A DNA stretch of 63,473 nt, the filler included, from Collodictyon triciliatum (taxonomy: Eukaryota), in the NCBI GenBank assembly GCA_043381765.1. It is 7 parts of 7 records of this genome, joined end to end, with 100 filler letters (N's around TTAATTAATTAA, not from the genome) between each part and the next. Parts side by side here need not be neighbours in the genome. Positions count along the whole stretch, not along the records: positions 48,462 to 59,595 come from JBHJMP010000763.1; 6 more parts are not named here. One strand, written 5' to 3'. A program made the translations under genes and the position numbers. The notes beneath the pieces were generated by a model. It was not told the DNA's origin. It saw nothing but the letters and a program-made list of their open reading frames with translations, and did not search any database. Below are positions 43,956-59,457 of this stretch, in pieces. Every line of letters begins with the position of its first letter. Within the stretch, counting starts at the first letter, position 1.

Positions 43956-46900
43956 ATGGGCCAGGAAAGTCGTCATTGTCCTCAAGCGGACGTTCATGCT
44001 ACTTTTTGTATACTTCTCAGTTTAGTCGTAATATCAACCTCAGCAAAGCTTCAACAGGGCTTCAGTATGGAAAACAAAGTTACCCAGATTTATGACTGCA
44101 TGATCGGCAGGTTTGTTGTGTATTTTTCTACATGGCATATTTTCCGTCTTTATTCTATTTAGTTGCCTTCATAGTTTTTTTTTTTACATTTCTTGTAACA
44201 ATTCATCTTTTTTTCCCTCAAATAGTTGCATATGGCCCCTCGAAGAGACATACGAAATTGTCGATGAAATTGACCCACAAGCTCTAAAAGGGATTGTAAA
44301 GCATATCATCACATTGGAATTTCAAAAGAATCATCATCCTTTCAAGATAGAGCCAGCACAAGCAACTTATAACATCGATAATACTTACCAAAGTCGCCCC
44401 CTCAAGATAGCTTCAAATGAAATTTCTCGCATTAAAACGTCACAAACAGCACCATTAAAGAACATTTATAAAAAGATGGGAGGAGAATATTGGAGACACC
44501 AAGAATATTGGTTAAACGACACTGTTTGTTATTGTAATTGGTATGGTATCAGCTGTTTATATGGATGCACTGATGAACAATGCCAGGTTTTTATTTTGAT
44601 CTTTTCAACTCTAAATTTATCAGCTAACAACAACTGAAACAATTATATTTTTTTTTATTCCTATCATAAAATATATTCAAATATTTCAGCATAATATACG
44701 TTTAATGTATACCAGTTGATTTGATAAATGCTACTGAATTGCATATCTAGAGACAAGAGTGTGCCGTTACTGGAATTGGGCTATTCGAGAACAACTTGGT
44801 TGGTAATTTAACAGACATCGAATCTGACTTAACAGACTTGCATTATCTGATATATCTCGATCTTGAGTACAATACATTAATTGGTTCGTTACCTCATGGT
44901 CCGATGCCGAGTCTGAGATATTTGCTTTTGAAAGGAAACAGGCTGAGTGGGGGAATTCATAATTTTGCCAATGCACCTGAGCTAACAGATATTGATTTAT
45001 CATCAAATAAATTTGATGCTATCAATTTTCATATGAACTCCACGGTAAATTTAAAAAGCTTTGAAGTTTCGACTAATTCTATTCGTAGTCAACTTCCAGA
45101 GTTTATTTCGCCGGTTTTATCCATTCTTAATTTGAGGGATAACAAGTTGTATGGAAATATTAAAAAGTTTTACTATGTACCTTCACTGGAAATAATCAAT
45201 CTTAGCAGAAATCTGTTAGGTGGGAATATACCAGAGTTACAATTTAATTACTTGACGATCCTTGATGTTTCATCAAATTACTTTGTGGGCAGCTTACCAA
45301 AAGTTTATAATGCAGGAGAATTGATAAAAAATGATGGGTCATTTTCTTCAACTGACCCAAAATCCATGGCATCATTCATACCACAGATATCGCTGATCAA
45401 TTTATCTAATAATTTGATTACGGGAACAATACCTAAATATAACATTCCATCAATGATGTTGATAGACGCATCGAGTAATTTTTTGACTGGGGTCATACCC
45501 AGTTTTGAAACTATGAGCAATTTAATGACGATTGATTTTTCATTCAACTCATTAAAGTTGTTTGATGACCGACTCCCATTTAACCTTCAGTCTCTTTTTA
45601 TTAACAGAAATCAGATACATGGCACACTGCCTGTAGAACTCCCTCCAGCCATGCATTTTTTCATCGGAAGAGACAATATTGGTCTTGTCGGTACCTTGCC
45701 ATCCTCATATGGGCGATTGATATCACTCGCAATCGTAGACTTGACAAACACATCGATATCAGGAAATGAAAAAGATGGTTACATTCCAGAAACCTTCATC
45801 TTATCTGAGAATGTAGAGTTATCTAATTCAAAGATGGATTACATGTGTCCTCATTTTATTGGAGAGAACACTTTAGTGGACATATATATCGACCCATCGT
45901 ACTTTCAATACGAATTTTGTTCTTGTTTGCCTGATCGATATGGATATCGTAATAATTGCATCCCGTGTGAGAGCCCATGTCTATGCCAAGAGGGAAATAT
46001 TGTTTCAAATTGCTTTCCATCACCAGACCACTTTTCTGTTGTGGAGTTAGTGCAATGTCCTTTAAATGAAGTCTGCAATCCCAAAAGTTCGTTCCCCTTC
46101 ACTTGTGAGGTGGGCTATACTGGGAGGCTATGCACTGCTTGCCAAACAGGATATTCGCCACAGGGAAGGCACTGTTTGGAGTGCCCACCACAATCAGAAT
46201 ATTACCTACCAATAATCCTCGCGCTATTCTTGGTAGCTTTTCTGGGATATATAATATATATTCCACCCCAATCAACTGGTATTTTTTTTTTGTGATCAAA
46301 TTTCTGCTAATTTCTTCTATCCTTAATTTTTATAAGTAAAGAAAAGAAGAAAAGAAGAAAAGAAGAAAAGAAGAAAAGAAGAAAAGAAGAAAAGAAGAAA
46401 AGAAGAAAAGAAGAAAAGAAGAAAAGAAGGAAAAAANNNNNNNNNNNNNNNNNNNNNNNNNNNNNNNNNNNNNNNNNNNNNNNNNNNNNNNNNNNNNNNN
46501 NNNNNNNNNNNNNNNNNNNNNNNNNNNNNNNNNNNNAAAAAGGAAAAAAGGAAAAAAGGAAAAAAGGAAAAAAGGAAAAAAGGAAAAAAGGAAAAAAGGA
46601 AAAAAGGAAAAAAGGAAAAAAGGAAAAAAGGAAAAAGAGGAAAAAAGGAAAAAAAGGAAAAAAGGAAAAAAAAGGAAAAAAGGAAAAGGAAATAAATAAA
46701 AAAGAGTTATATATGTTTTTTTTTAAATCTGGATGCATGATAGGCCGAGCCAGTTTATAAATTTTTCTACTCGCAAATCCTTATGATATCACAATTTCAG
46801 GACTGGCCAAAATATTCCTATTTCATGTCCAATCATTGGAAGTTGTGTATTATACGGCCGTTTTAAATGCAGAAGGGAGTTCAAGCATCGAATTGTTTAC

Positions 46901-48220
46901 TTCAATAGCAACCCTCCGAATTCCTTTTGTCAGATGCATGATATCAAATGAAAAATCTCACATTGTCTTGCTCATATATGTGCTCTTTGTATTCATGGTT
47001 TTCGTGGCCTGTGGGATTGGACTTTTCTTTTTTCAGACTCAAAAAAAATCGGACAAGGTATTTACTATTGTCTGTGTATTACAAGGGCGTATTCAATATA
47101 TAACTGTCTCTGATGCGTCCAGTTCATAAGTAGCTGTTCGCTTATCCTTGTTTTCTTTCTTCCAATCTTGTCATATTTCACGTTTATTCTTAATTGCATG
47201 ATAAATCCCGATCTCCTAGGTAATCTTTGTGACTTTATTTCTCCTTCACGCGATGTATTTCGGAATAAGTCGGCAGGTATTCGGGACGTTTGGGTGTACT
47301 TTATACGATAAGACAACCGAAAAATGGTATCTTAATTCGTTGCCATGGCTTGCCTGCCACCCGATGGATGCTGATTATAGCCCTATGCTCGAGTTGGCTT
47401 TGCCAAGTTTTGTGATTTACATAGTGGGGTTTTTCGTTGCTACCTACTACTTGCTTGTGTCACTTCGCTCGTACATGAATAATGAACGCATTATGCAAAG
47501 CTATGGATTTCTATACCTGTCCTACAGACCAGTAATGATATTTTTTTCTTACAATATATATATTTGTTGCGTGAACCAATATCATAACGTTGTATGATAA
47601 TTTTTTTTAAACTTTCATCGGACATTGTTAAGGTGCATTGGTACTGGGAACTCATATCGATGGCTCGTCGCCTTTTATATAGTTTTATGCTGAGTTTAAT
47701 TCCTTTTCACTACGAAACGACTCTTAGGATATCAATATTTTTAGTTATGTTGGTGAGTGTAATTAGTCATGAAACTGATATTTTTTTTCTTGCCAATAAG
47801 TAAAACTGGATGTCAATCTAATTCAGCACACTTTCTTGGGGCTACCTATTCATATATCAATAATTCCACTAGGCATCCCTTTTCCTCCAGCATACACAGA
47901 AACCATATGTATCAGACCTTGAAAACCGAATGGAGTTATTGTGCCTATACACCTTAATGCTGTCCTTTTTTGGGGGACTACTGTTTGATTTTTACGGGTT
48001 TGAAGTTTGGGTCTTTGTGTTGATTGCAATCCCCAACGTGGCGGTGGCAGGGTCTTTTGGATATTTGTTATATCCGCGCTTTCTGAGCGCAGCAAAAAGA
48101 TTAACCGTGGCTATACGATATTCTACAACAGATATTACGGGCCTCGATCTTTCATCTCTGTTGCAAGGTGCTGAACACAGTCCTCCGACAGAGCCCATGA
48201 TTCATTCACCAACAAAGTAG
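43956..48220 (+). CDS. Signal peptide + LRR ectodomain + Cys-rich region + ~7-TM domain (GPCR-like receptor architecture)
   Basis: LRR cap CNWYGISC, repeated LxxLxLxxNxLxGxIP, CEVGYTGRLCTAC, then KIFLFHVQ, FGC...YLNSLPWLAC and YGFLYLSYRP-VHWYWELISMARR with multiple hydrophobic helices. Confidence 0.88.
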
Positions 48221-48884: not shown

Positions 48885-51800
48885 ATGAATCCAGGTTCAA
48901 TCCCCTGTACCTCAACGAACTCTTCTCTCCTTTCTCCTTTCTCTTTTTTTTTCTCACTCTTCTCACCCTCCACCCTCCACCCTTCTATCTTGTCTCTTGT
49001 CTTCACTTGTCTTCTCTCTCAATACTTTACTGAGTAGCACAATAAACAGCACATTATCCTGTCTCTGGCCGCCCTTCGGTTTCTTCCGTCAGGACAGGCC
49101 TGGTTACCGGCGGCCCACATCAATATGCAGCTCCACCCCATCCAAACGCAGGACCGCAAAACATGCCGCGCCTATCCTCATTTTCCAACCTAGCCAATCC
49201 AGCATATGCTACGGTTCTCCCTGCCGTCGGCCCGGCCCCGGTCGCCATCTCTTCCTCTCAAAGCCACATACAAGTTCCGGGCCAAAGTCCGGCCCATCCG
49301 GGCTCATCGGCGCTCTCCGCACCCGCACAAGCAAAAATCGGACATGCAACAAGCCAGACTCGTCCACCCAACCCTGATGTCGGCACCGGGGTCTTTGCAG
49401 GCCATGCATACGGAAACGCTGCCGCGCAAAACACGGTTGCACCTGGTTCGGCCTCGGTTGGAGTCTCTCCCCGACAGTTAGGTAGTCCAGCCGCACAAAA
49501 GAATGATGTTGCTTTCTCAGGATCTCTGCAAGGGTTTAAAGCACCACCAAGGGCGATTCCTCCTCATTCAGCGGTATACTCTGAGCACAAAGTGCCTCGG
49601 ATTAAAGACCTTGAAATCAGTGGCGGTCCTTATCACACAAATAAGCTTATGCTTTCATTTACCATTTCTGGTGGGCTGGAAGGTTCCTCCAGGTTCTCAT
49701 GGCATCGATCTTCCCATAGTGACTGGTTTTCTCCAATCCCGGGTGAATGAATGATAGCTTCTTTGCTTGTCCTTCTTACTTAGCAGCCAATTCTCTCATG
49801 TGTTCATGTTTTTCATGTCCTATCTCTATCTGCGAAAGCGTAGTAGAAGAAAAAGTCGTCTTCAATATATTTATAATCGTAGATAATTGCATCTTAATTG
49901 ATATGCATTAATTAGGTGCTTCGAGTCGAAGCTACCAACCAACAGCAGAGGATTTAAACTGCAAGGTTAGAGTCGAGATAACGCCTGTGCTATCCAATGG
50001 AATCGAAGGCCCTTCACATCTCTATATTTTGCCCGATGATTTGATGTCAATAGGTCAAATTTTATTTATTTTTATCATTATTATCTCATCTCCAGGGCCT
50101 CGTTCATCCGAAAATTAATTATCCATATAATTCCCTTGCCCTCTTCACATCCGATTTCCTTTTAAATCATAAAATTTCTACAGATCCAAAGATTAAAGAA
50201 AGTGTCGATGCACTATATGAGCAAGGAAGAGCTGAATGGAAGGTGTTACTCAATAGGAATCATATATGAGCTCTAATATTAATATGATTATATATTTACG
50301 TGATTTCAAGTGACATCCACAGAAATGGAATGTGATTTTCTTAAAGCTAACCCTTCTTTATTTATTTGTTTTAGGTTATTCACATGAACGAACCATATAC
50401 ATTACTGGCCAATAAGAGGAAAATTAAGATTAGGAAAGATGGGAAAACGATCAAGAAATCTCGATACTCTGACGATTTCTATGTGAGATATTTTTTTCTC
50501 AAGTATTTTCATATTTGCGAGCCTGCCATTATAAATAACATGCCTGTAAAAATAAACGTAAACAAACAAGACAAAAAAAAATCTAGATACAATTTCACCA
50601 AGCGAATGAATGCATATTTGTTGTGATTATTGATGATGAGCGCTTTGATGTAACCGTCGATAGTAGCTTGACAAGAGATATCATCGGACTGCTAGTTGGT
50701 GCATTCTACAATGGAAATATAGTAAGTTACCGAGCTAAGTACGCTCGATAGATACAAGCTTCGAATTTTAAATGATTTTTTGAATGGTTGGTGCCTCCAC
50801 AATACATGCATTCATTCCTTAATTTTTAGGATGTGTATGAGATCCCTCACAAATTGCGTGTTTCTACATGTGATGTTAACATAAATCAAATTCTTGATTT
50901 GAAACGTAAGGGAGGTTAGTAAAACTTTTTCATGTTAGCACCTCACCTTACTTATTTCATTACATGCCATCCTTTTATCACTTAATTAATTTGTGTGCCC
51001 ATGCATATATGTGTTCTTTCTGCTTTCATTATCAAACAAACAAACAAAAACAAAAACAAAAACAAAAACAAAAACAAAAACAAAAACAAAAACAAAAACA
51101 AAAACAAAAACAAAAACAAAAACAACATTGGAATACATAAACAATGGTATTTATTTTAGTTAAGGACATCACTTCAAATACAAATCAAACTGCAATAACA
51201 GTCTCTGGGGGTCCTTATTTTACTCGTCCATTAATGCTCATTATTAAAGGAGCTAATCAAAGCCAACCCAACGCACCTAAAGGGTATTTAATTCGAATTA
51301 TTTTCTCGTTTTTTTCTCTCAAAGGAAACACATGGCAGCATGATATAAAACTGAACTATGCAATATTCCATTAGGGAAATAAAATGGTACCGTTCAAGAA
51401 GGGAGTGGGAGGATGAAGAAATAGAGGGTTTCTTTTCTTTCCTTTTTTTTTTTTTTTTTAGTCTACTGTCGTTACTGGCGTCAATCTTTGAGAACTTTAA
51501 TATACCTTTGATCAATATTCTTTCATCCTGTTCCTCAATAACTCTAACTCGATGAGAGAACTTTCACACCATTTTCTTCAAAAATTACAGGAGCTGTTGG
51601 TACTGTTTACCAACCCACGGCCGAGGACATTTTTTGTAGCCTGCGAGTTGAATTCACACCAATCAAAGTAAGCTTTGAAAAGATGTATACTTTATCTACG
51701 CCAAAGATTTCATCCAGCTTCTCCTTAATCGATTACATGTATAATCAAATCAAAACTTAACATGTCTTTTGGGATATAACAGGACGGTGTTCGAGGAAAA

Positions 51801-54800
51801 ACATTAAAGCACGATATTCCTCAAGAATACTTGGAGATTGGTATTATTTCAATTTATTGTCGATAAGTTATCATCTCTTCTGAAGCAACACATAATTCTA
51901 TTTCCCCTTCTCTTTTCCCATCACTATCTTCCTCAAGAACAAAAATTACAGACTAAATTTTGATGTATAACTTAGACCCGCTTATCTCAAACTCTCTTGA
52001 TACTGGTGTCAACACTGGGGAAGCTATATTTGAGGTTTTCTATTCCATCCAGATTTCTCGTGCAGCAATTGCTATATAACATTTAAATGGATTGATTTGA
52101 CGATATGAATCATATCTAAATTCTAGGTTTATTACAAAACCACTGGATATTATATCATCGAAACCATAAATTAATGAATACATGAGCCGACCAAACTTAA
52201 CGCAATTCATACGTCAGGTTGTCTTAGCTAAGAAGACACATGAAACAAGAAGACTCTATCTTCAAAAAGCTGACCTCAAGATTCTCCGATTCCTTAAAGT
52301 CTTGCATAAAGTTAAATACAACCGAATTGAGGTCAGTTACTCGAATATCCATACATCCATACATCCATACATCCATACATCCATACATCCATACATCCAT
52401 ACATCCATACATCCATACATCCATACATCCATACATCCATACATCCATACATCNNNNNNNNNNNNNNNNNNNNNNNNNNNNNNNNNNNNNNNNNNNNNNN
52501 NNNNNNNNNNNNNNNNNNNNNNNNNNNNNNNNNNNNNNNNNNNNNNNNNNNNNAAAGAAAAAGAAAAAGAAAAAGAAAAAGAAAAAGAAAAAGAAAAAGA
52601 AAAAGAAAAAGAAAAAGAAAAAGAAAAAGAAAAAGAAAAAGAAAAAGAAAAAGAAAAAGAAAAGAAAAAGAAAAGAAAAAGAAAAGAAAAAGAAAAGAAA
52701 AAGAAAAGGAAAAAGAAAACGCCAAAGCGTGCATTTCAGAGAAATCCTTGTTGCCATCGCCTTGTTTCCACTTCATCCCCACGAAAGCAGGCAGCCGAAG
52801 GAGTCAAAGCAGCAAAGACCACGGAATGGCAACCACCACGGCAACCACGACACCCACCACAAACCGCGATCTGTTCTCTGCGGTTTCGATCCACACGCCA
52901 CATTCCCACGCACAAACCCCGCCCAAAGCAAACACCCGCGCGCTCGTTCTCCCGCACATCCACACAAACCCGCAGAACAGCGAATCAAGCGCCAATGCCA
53001 AAGCCTTGCCCGCAGGTTTCTTTGCCCGCGATGCCAATCAAGCGCAGTCAACCACGGCAAATGCGAGTGGAAAAGTTCTGACGAGTGATTATCGTGCGTT
53101 GGGCCGGTCCGGGGCCATTGAGGCGTCTCCAGCCATCGTCCACTTTGCCGGCTTTCGACTCGATCAGGAGCATCGCATCTCATTCCGCATCGTCAATGTT
53201 TCTCAGGCTCGGACGCGCATTCAGATACTCGCCCCGACCGACCGACAGCATTTCACGATACATGGGGAGCGTAAGGTCTGTCCAACAAATCCACAAAGTT
53301 TCTCGAGCTATTATTTACATTTGGCTCACAAACATCCCAGCTTATTCAGCAATATCATATGACTCTATCTATCAGCTTCTCAGTTTTTGCTGTATCGTTT
53401 ACTCCATAATATTTAGTTAACGATACAAAAGTTTTTTGTTTTATTTTATTTTGTGATTAATCTCACCCTCGCTATATACAAGACTTTTTTTTTTGATTGC
53501 CTAGCATTTGACATTTATACTTTTTTTTCGTCTTTGTAAGTCTAATTGGTCGTTTCCTTAAGGAATAGAGTTCTTATATTAGAGAGGAAAAGAAGAAGAC
53601 AAGGATATACTTATACTGGAAAGTAATCATCAATTATGGATTTGGTTTAGGGTGACCTTGCTCCTGGTATGGGAGAGACAATCACGATACACTTTATCCC
53701 AACCGAGTACAAGTATTATTACGACTGTGTTCGTGTTCACGGCGTGGATGGAAATTTGATTGTCCCTATACATGCATATCCCACCATGAACAAGGCCATT
53801 TTCCCGAAGATGATGGACTTTGGTTCTTGCGCAATTAATGAAGAGTATGTGATTATGCTTCCTCCATGGGCTTAACGATTTAAATATTTCACAACATATA
53901 TATATTTTACTTTAGGTATGTCCGAACCCAAAAGATTAGTTGTACAGTTCCAATTGACTTCGAATACAAGTTTGAGATGGTTGAGCCGAATCCTTATCTC
54001 ACAATAGAGCCCATGAATGGTCTTTCCCTATACATGCCAGCATAAAATACCATCAAATATAAAACAACATACATCCATACATCCATACATCCATACATCC
54101 ATACATCCATACATCCATACATCCATACATCCATACATCCATACATCCATACATCCATACATCCATACACCCATAACTCCAAGAAGAAAAAGTTAAAAAG
54201 ATCTCTTGATTTCTAACTTTCTGCATAGTTCTCTTGATATGTTCATCAACATGACAAGTTAACATATTACTTAATAACTCATTTAGACCAAAATAGAACA
54301 CTCTGATATTGGCCGATTCTCACTGATAATTAAAGGTAGAATCAAATATGATTTGATAGCACGGGATAACATTCAAAGGGATGCCATTGTTCTTTCTATC
54401 CGAACATTCGCAAGCCTATATCGGGTGACTTTTTTTTTTGTTTCTATTACTTTATTATTACTGTCTTCATCGAGATGAAGCTTTCAATTGCGATATCCAC
54501 TTACACTATGAATTGGGACCATCTTTTTCTGAAAATTATACGTCGGAATCTGGAAATAAACTTTGCATTTGTATCGCAAACATAATTTTGAATTATTTAT
54601 TTTAGATTTTTTCTACCTTATCAACATCTTTCTGTTCAATAGATTTCAAAATATGCATTCCTTCAAAGATTCAGAGGGCCTGCGGATGATGATGATGATG
54701 ATAGGAGTGATGGCGATGAAGAGGATATTGATGATGACGAATTTGATGACACTATCTACCACCAAGATGAGTTCTCCGATGCTCAGAATCCCTCTGAAAA

Positions 54801-55578
54801 TGCACAGAAAAAGGGAGCCTCATTGCCACCAGGCCTGAAGAAGTCGAAAAAGCACGGAAAAAAGCCAAAGTCACGATCTTTTTGGTTATTTTCTTGCTTC
54901 AAGGGTGATGATGATGATGAAATTGGAAGTAGAGAAGGGAGACACGCAAAATCAGTATCCGAAAATAAAGGAACCGGTGGAAAGGGAGGTGCCAAACCAA
55001 ATGAGAACAGCCGCTTGGACAAGGGTAAGCCAGAAGATAAAGCTGATGGACACACTGTTCAGGATGCTGTTGCCTACACTGGAGATGATGGTGATGAGGA
55101 CGATGAGACTCGTCCGTTTACGGTGAAGTTCGGAGTTCGCAAAGCAACTATTGTTCGACGAGACTCTTCTGCAGCTAGGCCTGGAAATAAGGCTGCTCTG
55201 GTTCCTGACATCCCAAATGCCGCTTCGAAGCGACCCGCGCCAAGAAAAGGCTCCATGCATCAACCTCGACCTCGTCCATCAGTGAGTATTTCGTGTCTTT
55301 GATTTTGTGTGTACATAACGAGCAAGGCACAATTATTAGATGAAGGGGAATTTTTTTTCCCGCTCTACTTTCTCTGCTCTTTTAATGCTGCTTTTTTTTC
55401 TCCCATTTGCTGATCAAATCCTCACTTCAGGGAAATAGCGCACACAAAATGATGAAGCCCGGTGAACCATACGAAATGAACATGCTATTTCTCATGAAAG
55501 TACACCATACGCTCACATTAATTTACACACTTTTACACACAGAAACATCATATGAATGACAATGACAATGACAATGAT

Positions 55579-55631
<53 letters not shown>

Positions 55632-58600
55632 CAATCAAATGAATACATGATGAATAAACAACCCCAATCTAACCTGACTGTCCATTTATTTGTGCGAACC
55701 CACAACAGCCTAAGAGGGCTGGCAAAGTAAAGAACAAATTCTCGCCCCTGGAGGCTGGGATGACCAAGGAGATGCCTGTTGCTGCAGCGCAACCCACAAC
55801 CACAGGAACAAACGGCGGTCCTCCTCCGCCTCCTCCGCCTCCGCCACCCCCAGGAAGTTCCGGAGGACCGCCACCACCTCCGCCTCCACCTCCGCCTCCT
55901 CCGCCTCCAGGAAAGTCCGGGGGACCGCCTCCCCCGCCTCCACCTCCTCCACCTCCTCCGGGGATGTCGGGCGGTCCTCCACCTCCACCTCCACCTCCAG
56001 GTGGCGCAGTCGGGAACGCTGGCGCCGCGGCTGCAGATGGTAAAATGTCTTGTTACTTTTGACTGTCAGGCGATATGATAGAATTTTTTTTTTTTTTGTT
56101 TAGTCAAGTTGATAACTCTGATGTTGTTCATAGCATCGAAGACGAAGCAGTTGCATTGGAACAAGGTCGGAAAGGCTGACCTCCAAAAATCCATCTGGAT
56201 GATCGCCTCTGACAGAGAAGTTGACATCGATGACGAATTATTGGGTGCCATGTTTGTGAAAGAAGATACAAAGGATTTAGGTTTCTATTTCTATTTCTAT
56301 TTCTATTTCTATTTCTATTTCTATTTCTATTTCTATTTCTATTTCTATTTCTATTTCTATTTCTATTTCTATTTCTATTTCTATGTCTTTTTCTTTTTTT
56401 TTTCATATACATTAAACACGTATGCTTAACACGACGACTTGCAGCTGTCAAAGAGAAGGGAGACGACGCCCCCCTGGTTTCCCAGCGACGGCAATACCTT
56501 TTTGGTCCGATGATTTCTTAATTAATTGCTGTTGCATATATTTCCTTGTTAGAACTTTTCCAATCAAAAAAGTTTCTGTCTTGAATTTATATGTACACGC
56601 ATATATAAATTTTTTTTTATAAAAAAATCAGTATAGAGCTCAATAAACACGATTTTCTAATCACACAATTTCTTATTATCGAATGTATTTAAATAGACAT
56701 TGTTCTGAGACCGCTTAAGAAGGACATAATGGAAGTAATAAAGATAATTACGGACATGAGTTCAGACGAGCTACCTCCACAAACTTGGGCACAATTAGAG
56801 CAACAGCTACCCACCGAAGAAGAGGTATATACAACGATATAAAATAGAGGAACATACTTATTTTCGAACTTGCTCTATTGAATTACATTTGATCTGAATA
56901 CCGTGTATTCGACGTTGTACATTTTGATAGGAGCATTCCCTTCTTGAATTCAAAGGAGATGAGAGTAAACTATCAACGCCTGTACTTTTCATGTTGAAGG
57001 TTACTAACATCTTTTAAAGACATGTGCTGTCATTTGCAAAATCTTCATAATCAAAATCTTCATGGGTTTGATAAATTTAGCTCATTCAATATTTACGTGA
57101 AAAAAATTATTTCAGTTGGTCAAAATCCCATGCTTCTCGCTTCGATGCAAAGCTGTAGCATTTGAACTCAGAGTTAACGAGATGATTACAGATACTCAGA
57201 GAGAAATTGATGTAGTGAAATCTACCTGTCGCCAAATAATGACAAGCAAAAGATTCATCCGGTTATTGCAGGTAAAATTGTGAATAAATAATAATAATAA
57301 TAATCCTACTCTGATTTGCATTATATAAATCTATATTCTTTCATAATCTTTGTATCGAGTAAAGGAAAAATTCTTTCATAATATTTATATATATATATCT
57401 ACTTGTCAAAAGTATTTCGAATGGCTAAAAATGATACACATACTTATTAGGATCCTATTTCTTTAAAATAAGAAACAGCTATTAACAGTGCCCCCTTCTT
57501 TCTTTCTTTCTTTCTTTCTTTCTTTTTTTTTTTTTTCTTTTCACAGTTTGTCCTTGCATTTGGAAACTTTCTCAACTTTGGAACTGCAAAAGGATTTGCC
57601 TTAGGATTCCGTATTACCTCCTTGTTGAAGGTCATCATTTTATTTTCAGTTAACATACTATATCTGATGAACTCTAATGATATCTATTCGTACAATTTTG
57701 CAAGTTTCGATTATTTTGACGCAGTCGGTTATCTTAGTTATCAGAAGTGAAGGCTGTAGATCAAAAGACCACGTTACTTCATTTTCTCGTAAATCATATC
57801 GAAGAGAAGTAAGTATCGCAAGTGATAGACTTTTTATTGCCATTTTGAATGATTAATTTTTATTTTGTTTTTGCCTATTATTCTTCGCATATTTTTAATA
57901 CAAAAATTAGATTCTTAACGAGTCGTATTAATTAGTGACATAGATTGCTTTAAATTTTCGAATGAGATGAGTTCTTTGCCCGATGTCATTAATGGTTTGA
58001 ATTAGATTGGTGTCATATTATTGAAAAATTGCAATGAAATAGCGCTGAACCAATGCCATAACTCGTGGTATAATTTATAATACAAGAAATTAACTTACAA
58101 ATTGAAAGGAAGAATATATATACTCTTACAAGAAACTAACCAACGTATACCTCGCTCCACAATACTATCCCCAAGTTTCTGTCGGGGAATTGAATGAAAA
58201 AGTTACAAACTTAGTTAAGGAACAAAAAACGTTGAGCGAGGCTGTAATCATGGCTCGTGGGATGATGCCTGCATCGCCAGGAAATGATAAATTTATCGAA
58301 AGAATCAAGGCATGCATGAAATTCAACCCAGTGGTTTGATATATATTTATTGTGAATCGTTCGTGTACTAACATTCAGTCAATAGAATTCTATTGAAAGA
58401 ATTGGGAAAAAGCTCGAGCTTATTGTACACAACGCTTCTTTTATGAATCAAGAAATAAAAAAATTGGCAGGTATGTTTTAATTTGATGATTAATAAATAT
58501 CGGGAGCAATATTTTACCATATTCTTTTCAATTTTTCTACACATATATATCTATATATTGAAAAATACTAATATTCCTTCGCATCGCAAATATGTCAGGA

Positions 58601-59074
58601 TACTTTGCTGAGCCAGAGGAAAAGTTTGACCCCGATGGTACTTTCAAAATGCTCTACGACTTTATCGCTCAATTCCAGGTACCTGTTCTGCAGATGGTGC
58701 AAATTAGTTCTGAGAAACAAAAAAAAAAAAAAAATTATAAAACTATCTTTGATGAGCATTTATTATAAGAAAACTATAAAGAACTTGTGCTCACAACTTT
58801 CATTACTTTTATTGTTAAAACAGCTCTGTTGTCGATATCATCGTTAATTTTTTCCCTTGAATGCTTACCCACCTCCCAGAAAGCATACGAGCACAATGCG
58901 GCTGAAAAAAGGAAGTTGGGGTCTTTGGCCAAGGTAAAAATCCTCAAACATCCACGCTTGTATTCACTCTTCCCTATATCTTTATGAGTGCGACAAGGTC
59001 TTTAAAAAAGAATGATGTTTTACTCTTATATTTGTTTCATTACGTTATCCAGTATTGTTTTTATTACAATTTTT

Positions 59075-59115
<41 letters not shown>

Positions 59116-59457
59116 TATCATCGTCACTATCATCAGAATACTCAACCCGCCCAACCAACAACTCCTCAAAGTGTAAGATTATTCCATCGTATTAATTTTT
59201 AAATTTTCAAAAAATGAGCAAGGAAAACATGCCATTCGTTTACATTATTACATACCATTTCTACGATTTATTAGACTTTCTTTGATATATTTTTTTGTCT
59301 ATTTTTTTTTTCTCCGTGTCAGGGCAAACTCAACGCCGGCAATCTTCTCCTGCAAGTACACAAAGATTTTCAAGGGAACGAGTCCGGAGAGGAAGAAGAC
59401 AAAGCAGGTTCTGACGTGGAGGAAGACGACCCAGACGCAGAGTATCGAAAGGACTAG
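48885..59457 (+). CDS. Formin (FH1+FH2) with two N-terminal AIR9/SCAB-like Ig+PH modules. The model spans the gap and CFAP221 fragment at 52454-54050.
   Basis: Poly-Pro FH1 at 55820-56000. FH2 motifs TKQLHWNKV, SIW, LPTEEE, VLAFGNFLNFGT...GF and KTTLLHFLV. Upstream duplicated SGGPY...W.RS...GA...YQPTAED...RVE.TP modules. The splice junctions I traced from the start codon to the FH2 N-terminus are phase-compatible. Stop TAG at 59455. Confidence 0.8.
52347..52453. repeat. (CATCCATA)n microsatellite, same motif and strand as 54070-54170
   Basis: Directly visible. The first copy runs into the 52454-52553 gap. Confidence 0.95.
52826..54019 (+). CDS. CFAP221: CFAP221/PCDP1-like ciliary central-pair protein, N-terminal fragment only. 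Exons 52826-53275, 53651-53844, 53916-54019.
   Basis: PAIVHFAGF...IVNVS...RIQILAP, G.LAPGM...IHFIPTEYKYYYDCVRVH...NLIVPIHAYP.MN...FP and SCTVPIDFEY match the remembered CFAP221 N-terminal ASH-like region. No further exons were found. Confidence 0.85.

What the first reader, a model, noticed from the sequence alone, without database searches (positions are those of the whole stretch)
48885..59457. Formin with tandem AIR9/SCAB-like Ig-PH modules in place of GBD/FH3
Seen: two internally homologous modules. Module 1 (49590-50721) reads SGGPY..W.RS..YQPTAED..RVEITP, then KIKIRK..Y and TRDIIGLLVGAF. Module 2 starts at 51160 and breaks at a phase-0 donor (52332) midway through its PH-like half. The missing half reappears as a phase-0 exon at 54287-54424 (TKIEHSDIGRFSLIIKGRIKYDLIARDNIQRDAIVLSIRTF). 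That exon splices in frame to an acidic/basic linker, four poly-Pro FH1 tracts and an FH2 that appears to keep the actin-binding Ile and Lys positions. Established: Ig(A9)+PH-like units occur in the microtubule-associated protein AIR9 and the plant F-actin cross-linker SCAB1; known formin N-termini are GBD/FH3, PTEN-C2, TM, PDZ and similar. Inference: this is a formin class I do not recognise. It may be targeted to microtubules, filaments or membranes without Rho-type autoinhibition. The ORF track and probably automated annotation would split it into separate genes.
Basis: partly seen in the sequence, partly recalled or inferred. Interest (0 to 1): 0.8.

Follow-up and report, generated by a model that had tools for sequence, protein, structure and literature searches.

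The report
Formin with tandem AIR9-type Ig–PH modules
This is one 30-exon gene of a collodictyonid-like protist for an actin-assembling formin whose usual Rho-binding front end is replaced by two copies of an Ig-plus-PH-like module otherwise known from the plant and trypanosome protein AIR9, an unusual but not revolutionary domain combination.

Summary
A 30-exon, all GT-AG, stop-free model (48885-59457, 1391 aa) reads as follows:
- a disordered N-terminus;
- two homologous modules (32% identical, z about 28);
- an acidic/basic linker;
- four poly-Pro tracts;
- a complete FH2.

Single exons hit Pfam IG_AIR9 (27.1, 20.6 and 17.1 bits) and PH_AIR9 (18.4 bits). They hit no SCAB, GBD, FH3 or DAD family.

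The two modules share four intron positions and phases, including the mid-PH intron (50482/50587 = 52331/54287).

A Diphylleia rotans transcript ORF (P0003) runs collinearly from the end of the first PH2 half-exon through the second half, the linker, the small exon, FH1 and FH2. So PH-like domain and FH2 lie on one mRNA in a relative. RNA contigs confirm two FH1/FH2 junctions in this organism.

This is probably a scaffolding artefact.

None of 77 Pfam-scanned nearest FH2 relatives carries AIR9 domains.

The PH fold, the start codon and the function are untested.

Verdict: a new variant of a known kind, of moderate interest.

The parts
48885..48894 (+). putative first coding exon (ATG + 7 nt). 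Uncertain: the alternative start is the ATG at 49163 inside exon 2.
   Evidence: The GT donor and the AG acceptor at 49049 keep frame. There is no RNA or homologue support.
49050..49742 (+). exon 2: P/A/S/G-rich disordered N-terminus (about 180 aa, net charge +6), followed by the first half of Ig (A9) domain 1
   Evidence: Pfam IG_AIR9 at 27.1 bits, E 3.7e-6, profile positions 2-41 of 87, on 49589-49741. There is no Pfam hit on 49163-49588.
49916..50053 (+). second half of Ig (A9) domain 1 (YQPTAED motif)
   Evidence: Pfam IG_AIR9 at 20.6 bits, E 4e-4, profile positions 52-82 of 87. It enters in phase 1.
50184..50242 (+). Ig-PH connector exon of module 1
   Evidence: It is in frame with GT-AG borders. 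It is paralogous to 51976-52034.
50375..50721 (+). PH-like half-exons of module 1 (50375-50482 and 50587-50721), split by a phase-0 intron
   Evidence: They align with the module 2 PH-like exons. They have no Pfam hit of their own.
50830..50914 (+). inter-module exon, needed to go from phase 0 (50721) to phase 1 (51160)
   Evidence: It has no Pfam hit.
51160..51840 (+). Ig (A9) domain 2 in four exons: 51160-51283, 51375-51427, 51591-51667, 51783-51840
   Evidence: Pfam IG_AIR9 at 17.1 bits on 51593-51667. It aligns with module 1. All borders are GT-AG.
51976..52331 (+). connector exon (51976-52034) and first PH-like half-exon of module 2 (52218-52331)
   Evidence: The first 13 residues of P0003 align to the end of 52218-52331.
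52332..54286 (+). interval between the two PH2 half-exons. It holds (ATCCATAC)n at 52347-52453, a 100-N gap at 52454-52553, (AAAGAA)n, and a truncated FAP221/CFAP221 5' gene piece (exons 52826-53273, 53651-53847, 53916-54010, the last ending open in phase 1). (ATCCATAC)n then appears again at 54073-54168. It is probably a mis-scaffolded piece.
   Evidence: Sequence and repeats. PDB FAP221 chain 7sqc_M0 residues 94-158, E 3.9e-22. Pfam Ig_CFAP74_1st at 20.2 bits. P0003 has no insert at this junction.
54287..54424 (+). second PH-like half-exon of module 2 (phase 0 to phase 0)
   Evidence: Pfam PH_AIR9 at 18.4 bits, E 0.0029, profile positions 57-95 of 97. 26 of 61 residues are identical to the N-terminus of P0003 across the 52331/54287 junction.
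54643..55499 (+). linker exons 54643-55281 and 55431-55499: an acidic run, then a basic-aromatic patch (KK..K.RSFW type), then a mixed-charge region
   Evidence: It has no Met until near its end and no Pfam hit. It is collinear with P0003, small exon included.
55709..56039 (+). FH1 exon with four poly-proline tracts (11, 14, 12, 8 P)
   Evidence: RNA contigs of X1 and X2 join 56038/39 to 56133/34 with GT..AG.
56134..58678 (+). FH2 domain in 11 exons: 56134-56280, 56445-56504, 56697-56824, 56931-56999, 57116-57271, 57547-57630, 57738-57808, 57936-57994, 58176-58333, 58386-58470, 58599-58678
   Evidence: Pfam FH2 pieces. An RNA loose end after 56280 equals 56445-56474. P0001 (Collodictyon, 88.7% identity over 151 aa) spans the junctions between the five exons from 57116-57271 to 58176-58333. 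P0003 is 41% identical over 444 aligned positions, E 6e-100.
58880..59457 (+). C-terminal tail exons 58880-58933 and 59323-59457 (stop at 59455-59457): a short conserved LLL-type helix motif, then an acidic tail
   Evidence: It aligns with the tail of P0003. There is no Drf_DAD Pfam hit.

Best explanation
Positions 48885/49163 to 59457 (+ strand) hold one protein-coding gene of a collodictyonid-like eukaryote (Diphyllatea, CRuMs). The lineage is inferred from the nearest proteins. The gene encodes a formin of about 1390 aa with these parts:
- a disordered P/A/S-rich N-terminus;
- [AIR9-type A9 Ig domain + PH-like domain] twice, a tandem internal duplication;
- an acidic/basic linker with a conserved basic-aromatic patch;
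- FH1 with four profilin-binding poly-Pro tracts;
- FH2;
- a short conserved helix motif and an acidic tail.

How it most likely works:
- The FH2 dimer nucleates actin filaments and rides on their barbed ends, while FH1 feeds it profilin-actin. This follows from established formin mechanism and is inferred from the conserved Ile and Lys.
- The Ig-PH pair and the basic-aromatic linker patch place the enzyme on a membrane or a cortical protein scaffold, in place of Rho-GTP/GBD recruitment (inferred).
- Classical DID-DAD autoinhibition is absent.

The 1.95-kb interval between the two halves of the second PH-like domain contains an assembly gap and the truncated start of a FAP221 gene. This is most likely a scaffolding artefact inside a much shorter microsatellite-bearing intron.
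For: Shown:
1. The 30-exon model has only GT-AG introns and no internal stop.
2. Modules 1 and 2 are paralogous: score 201 against 32 +/- 6 in 300 shuffles. They share four intron positions with the same phases: mid-Ig phase 1, before the connector phase 1, before PH phase 0, mid-PH phase 0. So 54287-54424 is the true partner of 52218-52331.
3. Pfam hits in the right order: IG_AIR9 on three exons and PH_AIR9 on 54287-54424.
4. The linker exon has no Met for about 200 codons and opens with an AG acceptor in phase 0, so it needs an upstream exon.
5. P0003 is a Trinity transcript ORF of Diphylleia rotans in EukProt. It aligns collinearly from the last 13 residues of the 52218-52331 exon through 54287-54424, the linker, the 55431-55499 exon, FH1, FH2 and the tail. 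The N-terminal part scores 450 against 70 +/- 11 in 300 shuffles. Identity is 26 of 61 in the PH piece and 184 of 417 in FH2 plus tail.
6. P0001 (Collodictyon triciliatum, EukProt) is 88.7% identical and spans four FH2 junctions.
7. RNA contigs of two coded runs show the joint 56038->56133 (GT..AG) and a loose end that equals 56445-56474.
8. P0003 aligns to mDia1 with I and K at the columns of Ile-845 and Lys-994 (passage in PMC3937091). The window keeps I and K in the same motifs.
9. No exon hits GBD, FH3, DAD, PTEN_C2 or canonical PH families.
10. In a tree of 50 FH2 domains the window pairs with P0003 (SH-aLRT 100). The pair lies outside the well-supported PTEN_C2 clade.
Against: - No RNA of this organism was seen across 52331->54287, 54424->54643 or any module exon. 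The laid contigs covered only 55859-56280.
- P0003 starts with Met inside the PH-like domain. It therefore shows neither the Ig domains nor module 1 on the formin mRNA. It comes from another genus, and only 44% of its FH2 residues are identical.
- The link between 52331 and 54287 crosses a 100-N gap, so modules and FH2 lie on two contigs joined by a scaffolder.
- Two word-based searches with module exons found no protein at all.
- PH_AIR9 is below Pfam's cut-off (18.4 against 27 bits). It is hit by one of four PH-like half-exons and not by the N-terminus of P0003.
- The spliced modules could not be scanned or folded as wholes.
- The start codon is unproven.
- All statements on targeting and regulation are inference.
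Confidence: 0.8

Rival explanations
1. Two separate genes: an Ig-PH repeat protein (49050-52331) and an FH1-FH2 formin (from about 54287 or 54643). They were brought together only by scaffolding across the 100-N gap, or they are simply neighbours.
For: The N gap at 52454-52553 separates them. An unrelated gene start (FAP221) lies between them. No RNA cover of the junction was obtained. The assembly is very fragmented, with 23 N runs in 63 kb.
Against: - The upstream piece ends in the middle of a PH-like domain at a phase-0 donor, and the downstream piece starts with exactly the missing half at a phase-0 acceptor. The position and phase match the module 1 intron.
- P0003 carries both sides of that junction plus FH1/FH2 on one transcript.
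- The linker exon has no usable start codon.
Confidence: 0.07
2. The FAP221-like exons (52826-54010) are a real part of the locus. They would be a nested gene, a gene fragment inside a genuinely long intron, or an alternative 5' end of the formin transcript.
For: They are physically contiguous with the 54287 exon, with no N between 52554 and 59595. They lie on the same strand and have good splice sites and their own ATG.
Against: - Only about the first 210 codons of a protein of about 970 aa are present (7sqc_M0 is 971 aa).
- The last exon ends open in phase 1, whereas 54287 starts in phase 0.
- P0003 has no insert at the junction.
- The only two (ATCCATAC)n arrays of the window flank the piece, and one of them runs into the gap. 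This is the pattern expected from a repeat-mediated mis-join.
Confidence: 0.25
3. The N-terminal modules are not Ig+PH units related to AIR9. They would be a lineage-specific beta-rich repeat that matches the Pfam models only by chance or by a shared short motif.
For: - Every Pfam hit is below the gathering score when taken alone (27.1 against 27.5; 20.6; 17.1; 18.4 against 27).
- The PH1 exons, the first PH2 half and the P0003 N-terminus hit nothing.
- No PDB sequence match was found.
Against: - Two adjacent exons hit the two consecutive halves of IG_AIR9 (positions 2-41 and 52-82 of 87). Their bits sum to 47.7, and a third exon in the paralogous module hits the same part.
I did not check that order in AIR9 itself.
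- E-values of 4e-6 to 5e-3 on fragments of 25-51 aa are not typical of chance.
Confidence: 0.12

Closest known systems
[quoted passage not shown]
   Same: The modules are the only Pfam families hit by the N-terminal exons: A9-type Ig followed by a PH-like piece. AIR9 proteins are cytoskeleton-associated (PMC3488599, passages).
   Different: - AIR9 has leucine-rich repeats, 5-11 A9 domains and, in plants, a basic Ser-rich microtubule-binding N-terminus. It has no FH1/FH2.
- This protein has no LRR hit, only two A9 domains, and a formin core.
- It is not an AIR9 orthologue. It only shares the module.
SCAB1 fused Ig-PH domain (plant actin bundler)
   Same: The same kind of unit: an Ig domain fused to an atypical PH domain in an actin-regulating protein. 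That unit binds phosphoinositides (PMC10730221, passages).
   Different: No sequence relation was detected. No SCAB Pfam family was hit at E up to 10, and no PDB chain matched. SCAB1 has no FH2. The resemblance is architectural only and was not tested by structure.
PHCF formins of holozoans (PH-PH-FH1-FH2-PH) and PH-bearing formins of stramenopiles and apusozoans
   Same: These are formins whose N-terminus carries a pair of PH-type lipid/protein-binding domains instead of GBD/DID (PMC5628938 and PMC2386819, passages).
   Different: - Those have canonical PH domains without Ig partners. Here no canonical PH family (PF00169) is hit, and each PH-like domain is preceded by an A9 Ig.
- One FH2 neighbour with a C-terminal PH (P0093) was scanned, but it did not enter the tree.
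- No kinship to PHCF was shown or excluded.
Diaphanous-related formins (GBD/FH3-FH1-FH2-DAD)
   Same: The FH1-FH2 core. The best solved relative of P0003 is mDia1 (E 8e-43), with the Ile and Lys actin contacts kept. A short Leu-rich helix in the tail is faintly DAD-like by eye.
   Different: No GBD, FH3 or DAD family is hit. The tail is acidic rather than basic after the helix. There is no room for a GBD/FH3 upstream, because the preceding gene's ORF ends at 48220.
P0003 (Diphylleia rotans) and P0001 (Collodictyon triciliatum) transcript ORFs in EukProt
   Same: These are the nearest relatives and probable orthologues. P0001 is 88.7% identical over 151 aa. P0003 is 41-44% identical over FH2 and is collinear from the PH-like domain onward.
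   Different: Both are fragments. P0001 covers only part of FH2. P0003 begins inside the PH-like domain, so neither shows the Ig domains.

Membership tests
Formin (FH2 family, Pfam PF02181) | A complete FH2 domain | tested here: met
   Four exon ORFs hit FH2 profile positions 9-42, 86-130, 150-205 and 204-233. The spliced model aligns over 444 positions with P0003 (E 6e-100). P0003's FH2 scores 284 bits against Pfam over positions 9-371 of 372.
Formin (FH2 family, Pfam PF02181) | The conserved Ile (knob) and Lys (post) actin contacts, Ile-845 and Lys-994 of mDia1 | tested here: met
   The P0003-mDia1 HMMER alignment places I and K at those motifs. The residues are named in PMC3937091. The window has I and K in the same motifs. 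The numbering was mapped by motif context, not by a numbered structure.
Formin (FH2 family, Pfam PF02181) | An FH1 poly-proline region directly upstream of FH2 | tested here: met
   Four tracts of 11, 14, 12 and 8 P at model residues 891-950. FH1 is joined to FH2 in RNA contigs.
Formin (FH2 family, Pfam PF02181) | Actin nucleation and processive elongation activity | not testable with these tools
   This needs pyrene-actin and TIRF assays.
AIR9-type A9 Ig domain (Pfam IG_AIR9, PF23197) | A match to the family profile at or above the gathering score (27.5 bits) | tested here: inconclusive
   Only single exons could be scanned: 27.1 bits (positions 2-41), 20.6 bits (52-82) and 17.1 bits (54-74). 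The two halves of module 1 sum to 47.7 bits, but no single scan reached the cut-off.
AIR9 PH-like domain (Pfam PH_AIR9, PF23218) | A match to the family profile at or above the gathering score (27 bits) | tested here: inconclusive
   18.4 bits, E 0.0029, positions 57-95 of 97, on 54287-54424 only. There was no hit for 50375-50482, 50587-50721, 52218-52331 or P0003 residues 1-74.
AIR9 protein family (orthologue of AtAIR9/TbAIR9) | Leucine-rich repeats followed by an array of five or more A9 domains | tested here: not met
   No LRR family was hit in any exon, and there are only two A9-like domains. The AIR9 layout is taken from PMC3488599.
SCAB1 Ig-PH (Pfam SCAB-Ig / SCAB-PH) | Sequence match to the SCAB families or to the solved SCAB1 chain | tested here: not met
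   No SCAB family at E up to 10. No PDB match with exons or with the profiles A1 and A2. Fold-level likeness was not tested.
Diaphanous-related formin | GBD/FH3 (DID) at the N-terminus and DAD at the C-terminus | tested here: not met
   No Drf_GBD, Drf_FH3 or Drf_DAD hit on any exon, including the N-terminal 142 aa and the last exon.
PTEN-formin (plant class II type) | An N-terminal PTEN phosphatase/C2 domain | tested here: not met
   No PTEN_C2 hit. The window lies outside the PTEN_C2 FH2 clade, which has SH-aLRT 100.

The most novel reading that the evidence does not exclude
The A9-Ig + PH-like unit may be an old, portable cortex- or membrane-recognition device that existed before plants and trypanosomatids built AIR9. 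In the deep-branching CRuMs lineage, a tandem pair of it was fused to FH1-FH2. That would create a Rho-independent formin class that reads a cortical or membrane landmark directly and builds actin there, for example at the feeding groove or at pseudopodia of collodictyonids. A bolder reading is that such Ig-PH formins are the missing non-metazoan kin of the orphan PH-PH-FH1-FH2-PH (PHCF) subtype.
Probability: 0.15. Interest if true: 0.7.

Novelty: new variant of a known kind. Interest (0 to 1): 0.5.

Why it matters
Formins are defined by FH2, and their N-termini decide where and when actin is made. Surveys list GBD/FH3, PTEN-C2, transmembrane, PDZ, PH, ANK, C2 and RhoGAP-like fronts (PMC2386819 and PMC5628938, passages). 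In what I could search, none lists an AIR9-type Ig-PH front.

If the model is right:
- It adds a domain combination from a sparsely sampled supergroup (CRuMs) next to Amorphea.
- It shows that the A9/PH-like module is not confined to AIR9-type proteins.
- It offers a compact test case for what that module binds, which is unknown even for AIR9.

It also has a practical use as a warning. The locus contains a probable scaffolding artefact that would make automated annotation split or corrupt the gene.

The finding is not a new mechanism. Lineage-specific formin fronts are common in protists, so a specialist would be interested rather than astonished.

Tried and rejected
- Whole genome: none is held for this window.
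- Word-based protein searches, 'longer' class: the Ig exon region and the 54287 exon gave no hit. This is weak evidence only.
- RNA:
  - The look-up of sequencing runs listed no holder on record as RNA.
  - The part 54170-56281 was then laid. Contigs covered only 55859-56280, so there was no cover of 54170-55850 and no verdict on the PH-to-linker junction. No run was left for the module exons.
- PDB sequence searches with single exons and with small profiles (A1, A2) for SCAB1 or any Ig/PH relative gave only chance-level rows.
- Earlier findings of this scan: nothing by place, by words or by sequence.
- Pfam on the last exon for DAD and on the linker gave nothing.
- Considered and rejected: the FAP221-like exons are part of the formin. 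The phases do not fit and P0003 has no insert there.
- Considered and rejected: the formin continues from the upstream LRR/membrane gene. That ORF ends in a stop at 48220.
- Literature searches found no paper describing such a formin:
  - AIR9 + formin;
  - formin + Collodictyon;
  - AIR9 + SCAB1, 0 papers;
  - FH2 domain + Ig-like domain + formin, 5 unrelated papers.
  The library lacks most subscription journals. InterPro architectures could not be queried.
Only unbroken window translations or database proteins can be handed to those tools.


Full report
**What the window is.** The window is a fragmented eukaryotic scaffold with 23 runs of N in 63 kb. Its exons are G+C-richer than its A+T-rich, microsatellite-laden introns. 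No whole genome is held for it.
- The nearest proteins to the gene studied here are two EukProt transcript ORFs.
- P0001 is from Collodictyon triciliatum: 152 aa, 88.7% identical over 151 aa.
- P0003 is from Diphylleia rotans: 785 aa.
- The organism is therefore most likely a collodictyonid (Diphyllatea, CRuMs) or a close relative. This is an inference from best hits, not a proof.

**Check of the observation.** I then extended these to a full model of 30 exons.
- All introns are GT-AG. The model has 4176 coding bases, 1391 codons and no internal stop.
- Modules 1 and 2 are clearly paralogous. The local score is 201, against 32.3 +/- 5.9 (maximum 60) in 300 shuffles, with 59 of 182 aligned residues identical.
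- They share four intron positions with identical phases: inside the Ig (phase 1), before the short connector (phase 1), before the PH-like part (phase 0) and inside the PH-like part (phase 0).
- The last of these is 50482/50587 in module 1 and 52331/54287 in module 2. This is strong internal evidence that the 54287-54424 exon is the true continuation of 52218-52331.

**What the modules are.** Only unbroken translations of the window can be given to the family and structure tools, so each exon was scanned alone.
- Pfam IG_AIR9 (AIR9 A9 domain) is hit by 49589-49741 (27.1 bits, E 3.7e-6, profile 2-41 of 87).
- It is hit by the next exon, 49918-50052 (20.6 bits, profile 52-82).
- It is hit by the paralogous exon 51593-51667 (17.1 bits).
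- Pfam PH_AIR9 is hit by 54287-54424 (18.4 bits, E 0.0029, profile 57-95 of 97) (the same families appear).
- Each hit is below the family's gathering score when taken alone, and the other PH-like half-exons hit nothing.
- I therefore regard the Ig assignment as good and the PH assignment as probable.
- No SCAB, canonical PH, LRR, GBD, FH3, DAD or PTEN_C2 family appears for any exon.
- Neither single exons nor small profiles of them find any solved structure by sequence.
- 'AIR9-type' is thus supported. 'SCAB-like' is at most an architectural analogy: SCAB1 has a fused Ig-PH domain that binds phosphoinositides (PMC10730221, passages).

**The formin part.**
- The exon 55709-56039 carries four poly-Pro tracts of 11, 14, 12 and 8 residues.
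- Eleven short exons (56134-58678) make a complete FH2. Four exon ORFs hit Pfam FH2 in order.
- The spliced model aligns with P0003 over 444 positions (41% identity, E 6e-100).
- In HMMER's alignment of P0003 to mDia1 (E 8e-43), I and K stand at the motifs that hold Ile-845 and Lys-994. These are the two actin-binding centres (PMC3937091, passages).
- The window keeps I and K in the same motifs. I mapped the numbering by motif context.
- The tail has a short Leu-rich motif conserved with P0003, followed by an acidic stretch. It gives no Drf_DAD hit.

**One gene or two?** Four lines of evidence point to one gene.
1. The PH-like domain of module 2 is split exactly between the two assembly pieces, with matching phases (see above).
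2. The 213-codon linker exon opens at an AG acceptor in phase 0 and has no Met until its last 10%. It therefore cannot start a protein.
3. P0003, assembled from RNA of a related genus, is collinear with the model.
   - The collinearity runs from the last 13 residues of the 52218-52331 exon through 54287-54424, the linker, the 23-codon exon 55431-55499, FH1, FH2 and the tail.
   - The N-terminal 345 residues score 450, against 70 +/- 11 (maximum 109) in 300 shuffles.
   - 26 of 61 residues are identical over the PH-like piece.
   - So the junctions 52331->54287, 54424->54643, 55281->55431 and 55499->55709 all have a counterpart on one mRNA, without any insert.
4. RNA contigs of two coded runs, near-identical to the window, show the joint 56038->56133 (GT..AG). 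They also show a 110-letter loose end after 56280 whose first 30 letters equal 56445-56474, the start of my next exon.

P0001 likewise spans four FH2 junctions.

What is missing:
- There is no RNA of this organism over the module exons or the PH-linker junction. The laid contigs covered 55859-56280 only.
- P0003 begins with a Met inside the PH-like domain. It is presumably a truncated or partly spliced isoform, and it says nothing about the Ig domains or module 1.

**The interval 52332-54286.** In order, it contains:
- an (ATCCATAC)n array that runs straight into a 100-N gap;
- an (AAAGAA)n array;
- a G+C-rich exon with its own ATG (52826);
- two further + strand exons;
- the same (ATCCATAC)n array again.

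These are the only two such arrays in the window. The middle exon matches residues 94-158 of Chlamydomonas FAP221 (971 aa) at E 3.9e-22, and also FAP360 and human CFAP221. So this is the first 200-odd codons of a central-apparatus gene. It ends open in phase 1, and its remaining exons are absent. It cannot be spliced in frame into the formin, and the Diphylleia transcript has nothing there. The simplest reading is a repeat-mediated mis-join of a small contig inside a short microsatellite intron. A true nested fragment is not excluded (I give it about 0.25).

**Relatives and novelty.**
- An exhaustive HMMER search with P0001 against 1.84 billion representatives gave 5395 hits at E <= 0.001.
- In the phmmer ranking only P0001 itself and P0002-P0004 reach E <= 1e-30. 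Against the whole spliced model, only P0003 stands out: in BLAST the next best FH2 domains are 25-28% identical.
- I scanned 77 of the 149 other listed hits with Pfam. These were all 76 of 500 aa or more, plus P0005.
- 0 of the 77 carry IG_AIR9 or PH_AIR9. 17 carry PTEN_C2 and 26 carry GBD and/or FH3. The rest carry FYVE, SH3, ANK/WW, C-terminal PH or nothing.
- The tree held 50 FH2 domains. Rows were kept if they were at least 500 aa long and had at least 300 aligned positions.
- In it the window pairs with P0003 (SH-aLRT 100) on a long stem, outside the PTEN_C2 clade, in an otherwise unresolved region.
- The two broad formin surveys I could read in passages list GBD/FH3, DAD, PH, ANK, C2, PDZ, PTEN, transmembrane and RhoGAP-like fronts, and the PH-PH-FH1-FH2-PH 'PHCF' subtype. 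They list no Ig/A9 module (PMC2386819; PMC5628938).
- Four literature searches found no paper describing such a formin.
- InterPro architectures could not be queried, so 'not catalogued' is not proven.

**How it most likely works.**
- Shown: the domain order and the conserved FH2 contacts.
- From established formin mechanism: a dimeric FH2 nucleates filaments and stays on the barbed end, while FH1 delivers profilin-actin.
- Inferred, probability about 0.5: the tandem Ig-PH modules localise the enzyme to a membrane or a cortical protein scaffold. A basic-aromatic patch in the linker, conserved with P0003, would act with them.
- Regulation is not by Rho/GBD-DID-DAD.
- Microtubule binding through the A9 domains is less likely. 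In AtAIR9 that activity lies in the basic Ser-rich N-terminus, and A9 domains are regarded as Ig-like interaction domains (PMC3488599).
- The N-terminus here is P/A/S-rich with a net charge of only +6 over 183 residues.

**Verdict.** It is a formin with a tandem AIR9-type Ig-PH front end, conserved at least from the PH-like domain onward in two collodictyonid genera. It is a new variant of a known, notoriously modular family. The assembly around it is faulty. The fold of the PH-like part, the 5' end and all functional statements remain to be tested.

Noticed in passing
window 52826-54010 (+): This is the truncated 5' part of a FAP221/CFAP221 (PCDP1-type central-apparatus) gene. It has three exons and its own ATG, and it ends open in phase 1. 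It is flanked by a 100-N gap and by the only two (ATCCATAC)n arrays of the window. It is likely a mis-scaffolded contig.
   Followed up: partly
window 55885 (FH1 exon): One RNA contig of run X1 carries 12 extra letters (four more Pro codons) in the poly-Pro region. This suggests an FH1 length difference between strains, species or alleles.
   Followed up: no
window 54830-54900 (linker exon): A basic-aromatic patch (Lys-rich, then Ser-Phe-Trp-Leu-Phe) is conserved with P0003 (Lys-rich, then Phe-Ser-Phe-Phe). By eye it recalls MARCKS-type membrane-binding effector motifs. It was not tested.
   Followed up: no
window 44104-48220 (+): The upstream neighbour has a 514-aa ORF of leucine-rich repeats and a Cys-rich region, followed by several hydrophobic segments. 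It ends in a stop at 48220. This is read from ORFs only.
   Followed up: no
window 25320-27850 (-) and 1494-3563 (+): By motif reading of ORFs alone, these look like kinesin motor exons (- strand) and a Ser/Thr protein kinase with a long Pro-rich tail (+ strand).
   Followed up: no
window 4473-5641 (-): These ORF pieces look like a mitochondrial ATP synthase gamma subunit, by motif reading only.
   Followed up: no
window 35199-36221 (+): This is a 340-aa ORF with a Ser/Asp-rich region and a C-terminal C3HC4 RING-like Cys pattern, by eye.
   Followed up: no
whole window: There are 23 N runs (10, 44 or 100 N). Many lie next to homopolymers or microsatellites, and several are paired 44-N runs 12 bases apart. 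Gene models across gaps in this assembly need care.
   Followed up: partly
P0002, P0004, P0006-P0008, P0018 (database proteins): Several of the high-scoring FH2 neighbours show two or three FH2 stretches in one protein, some with PTEN_C2. They may be tandem FH2 proteins or fused gene models.
   Followed up: no
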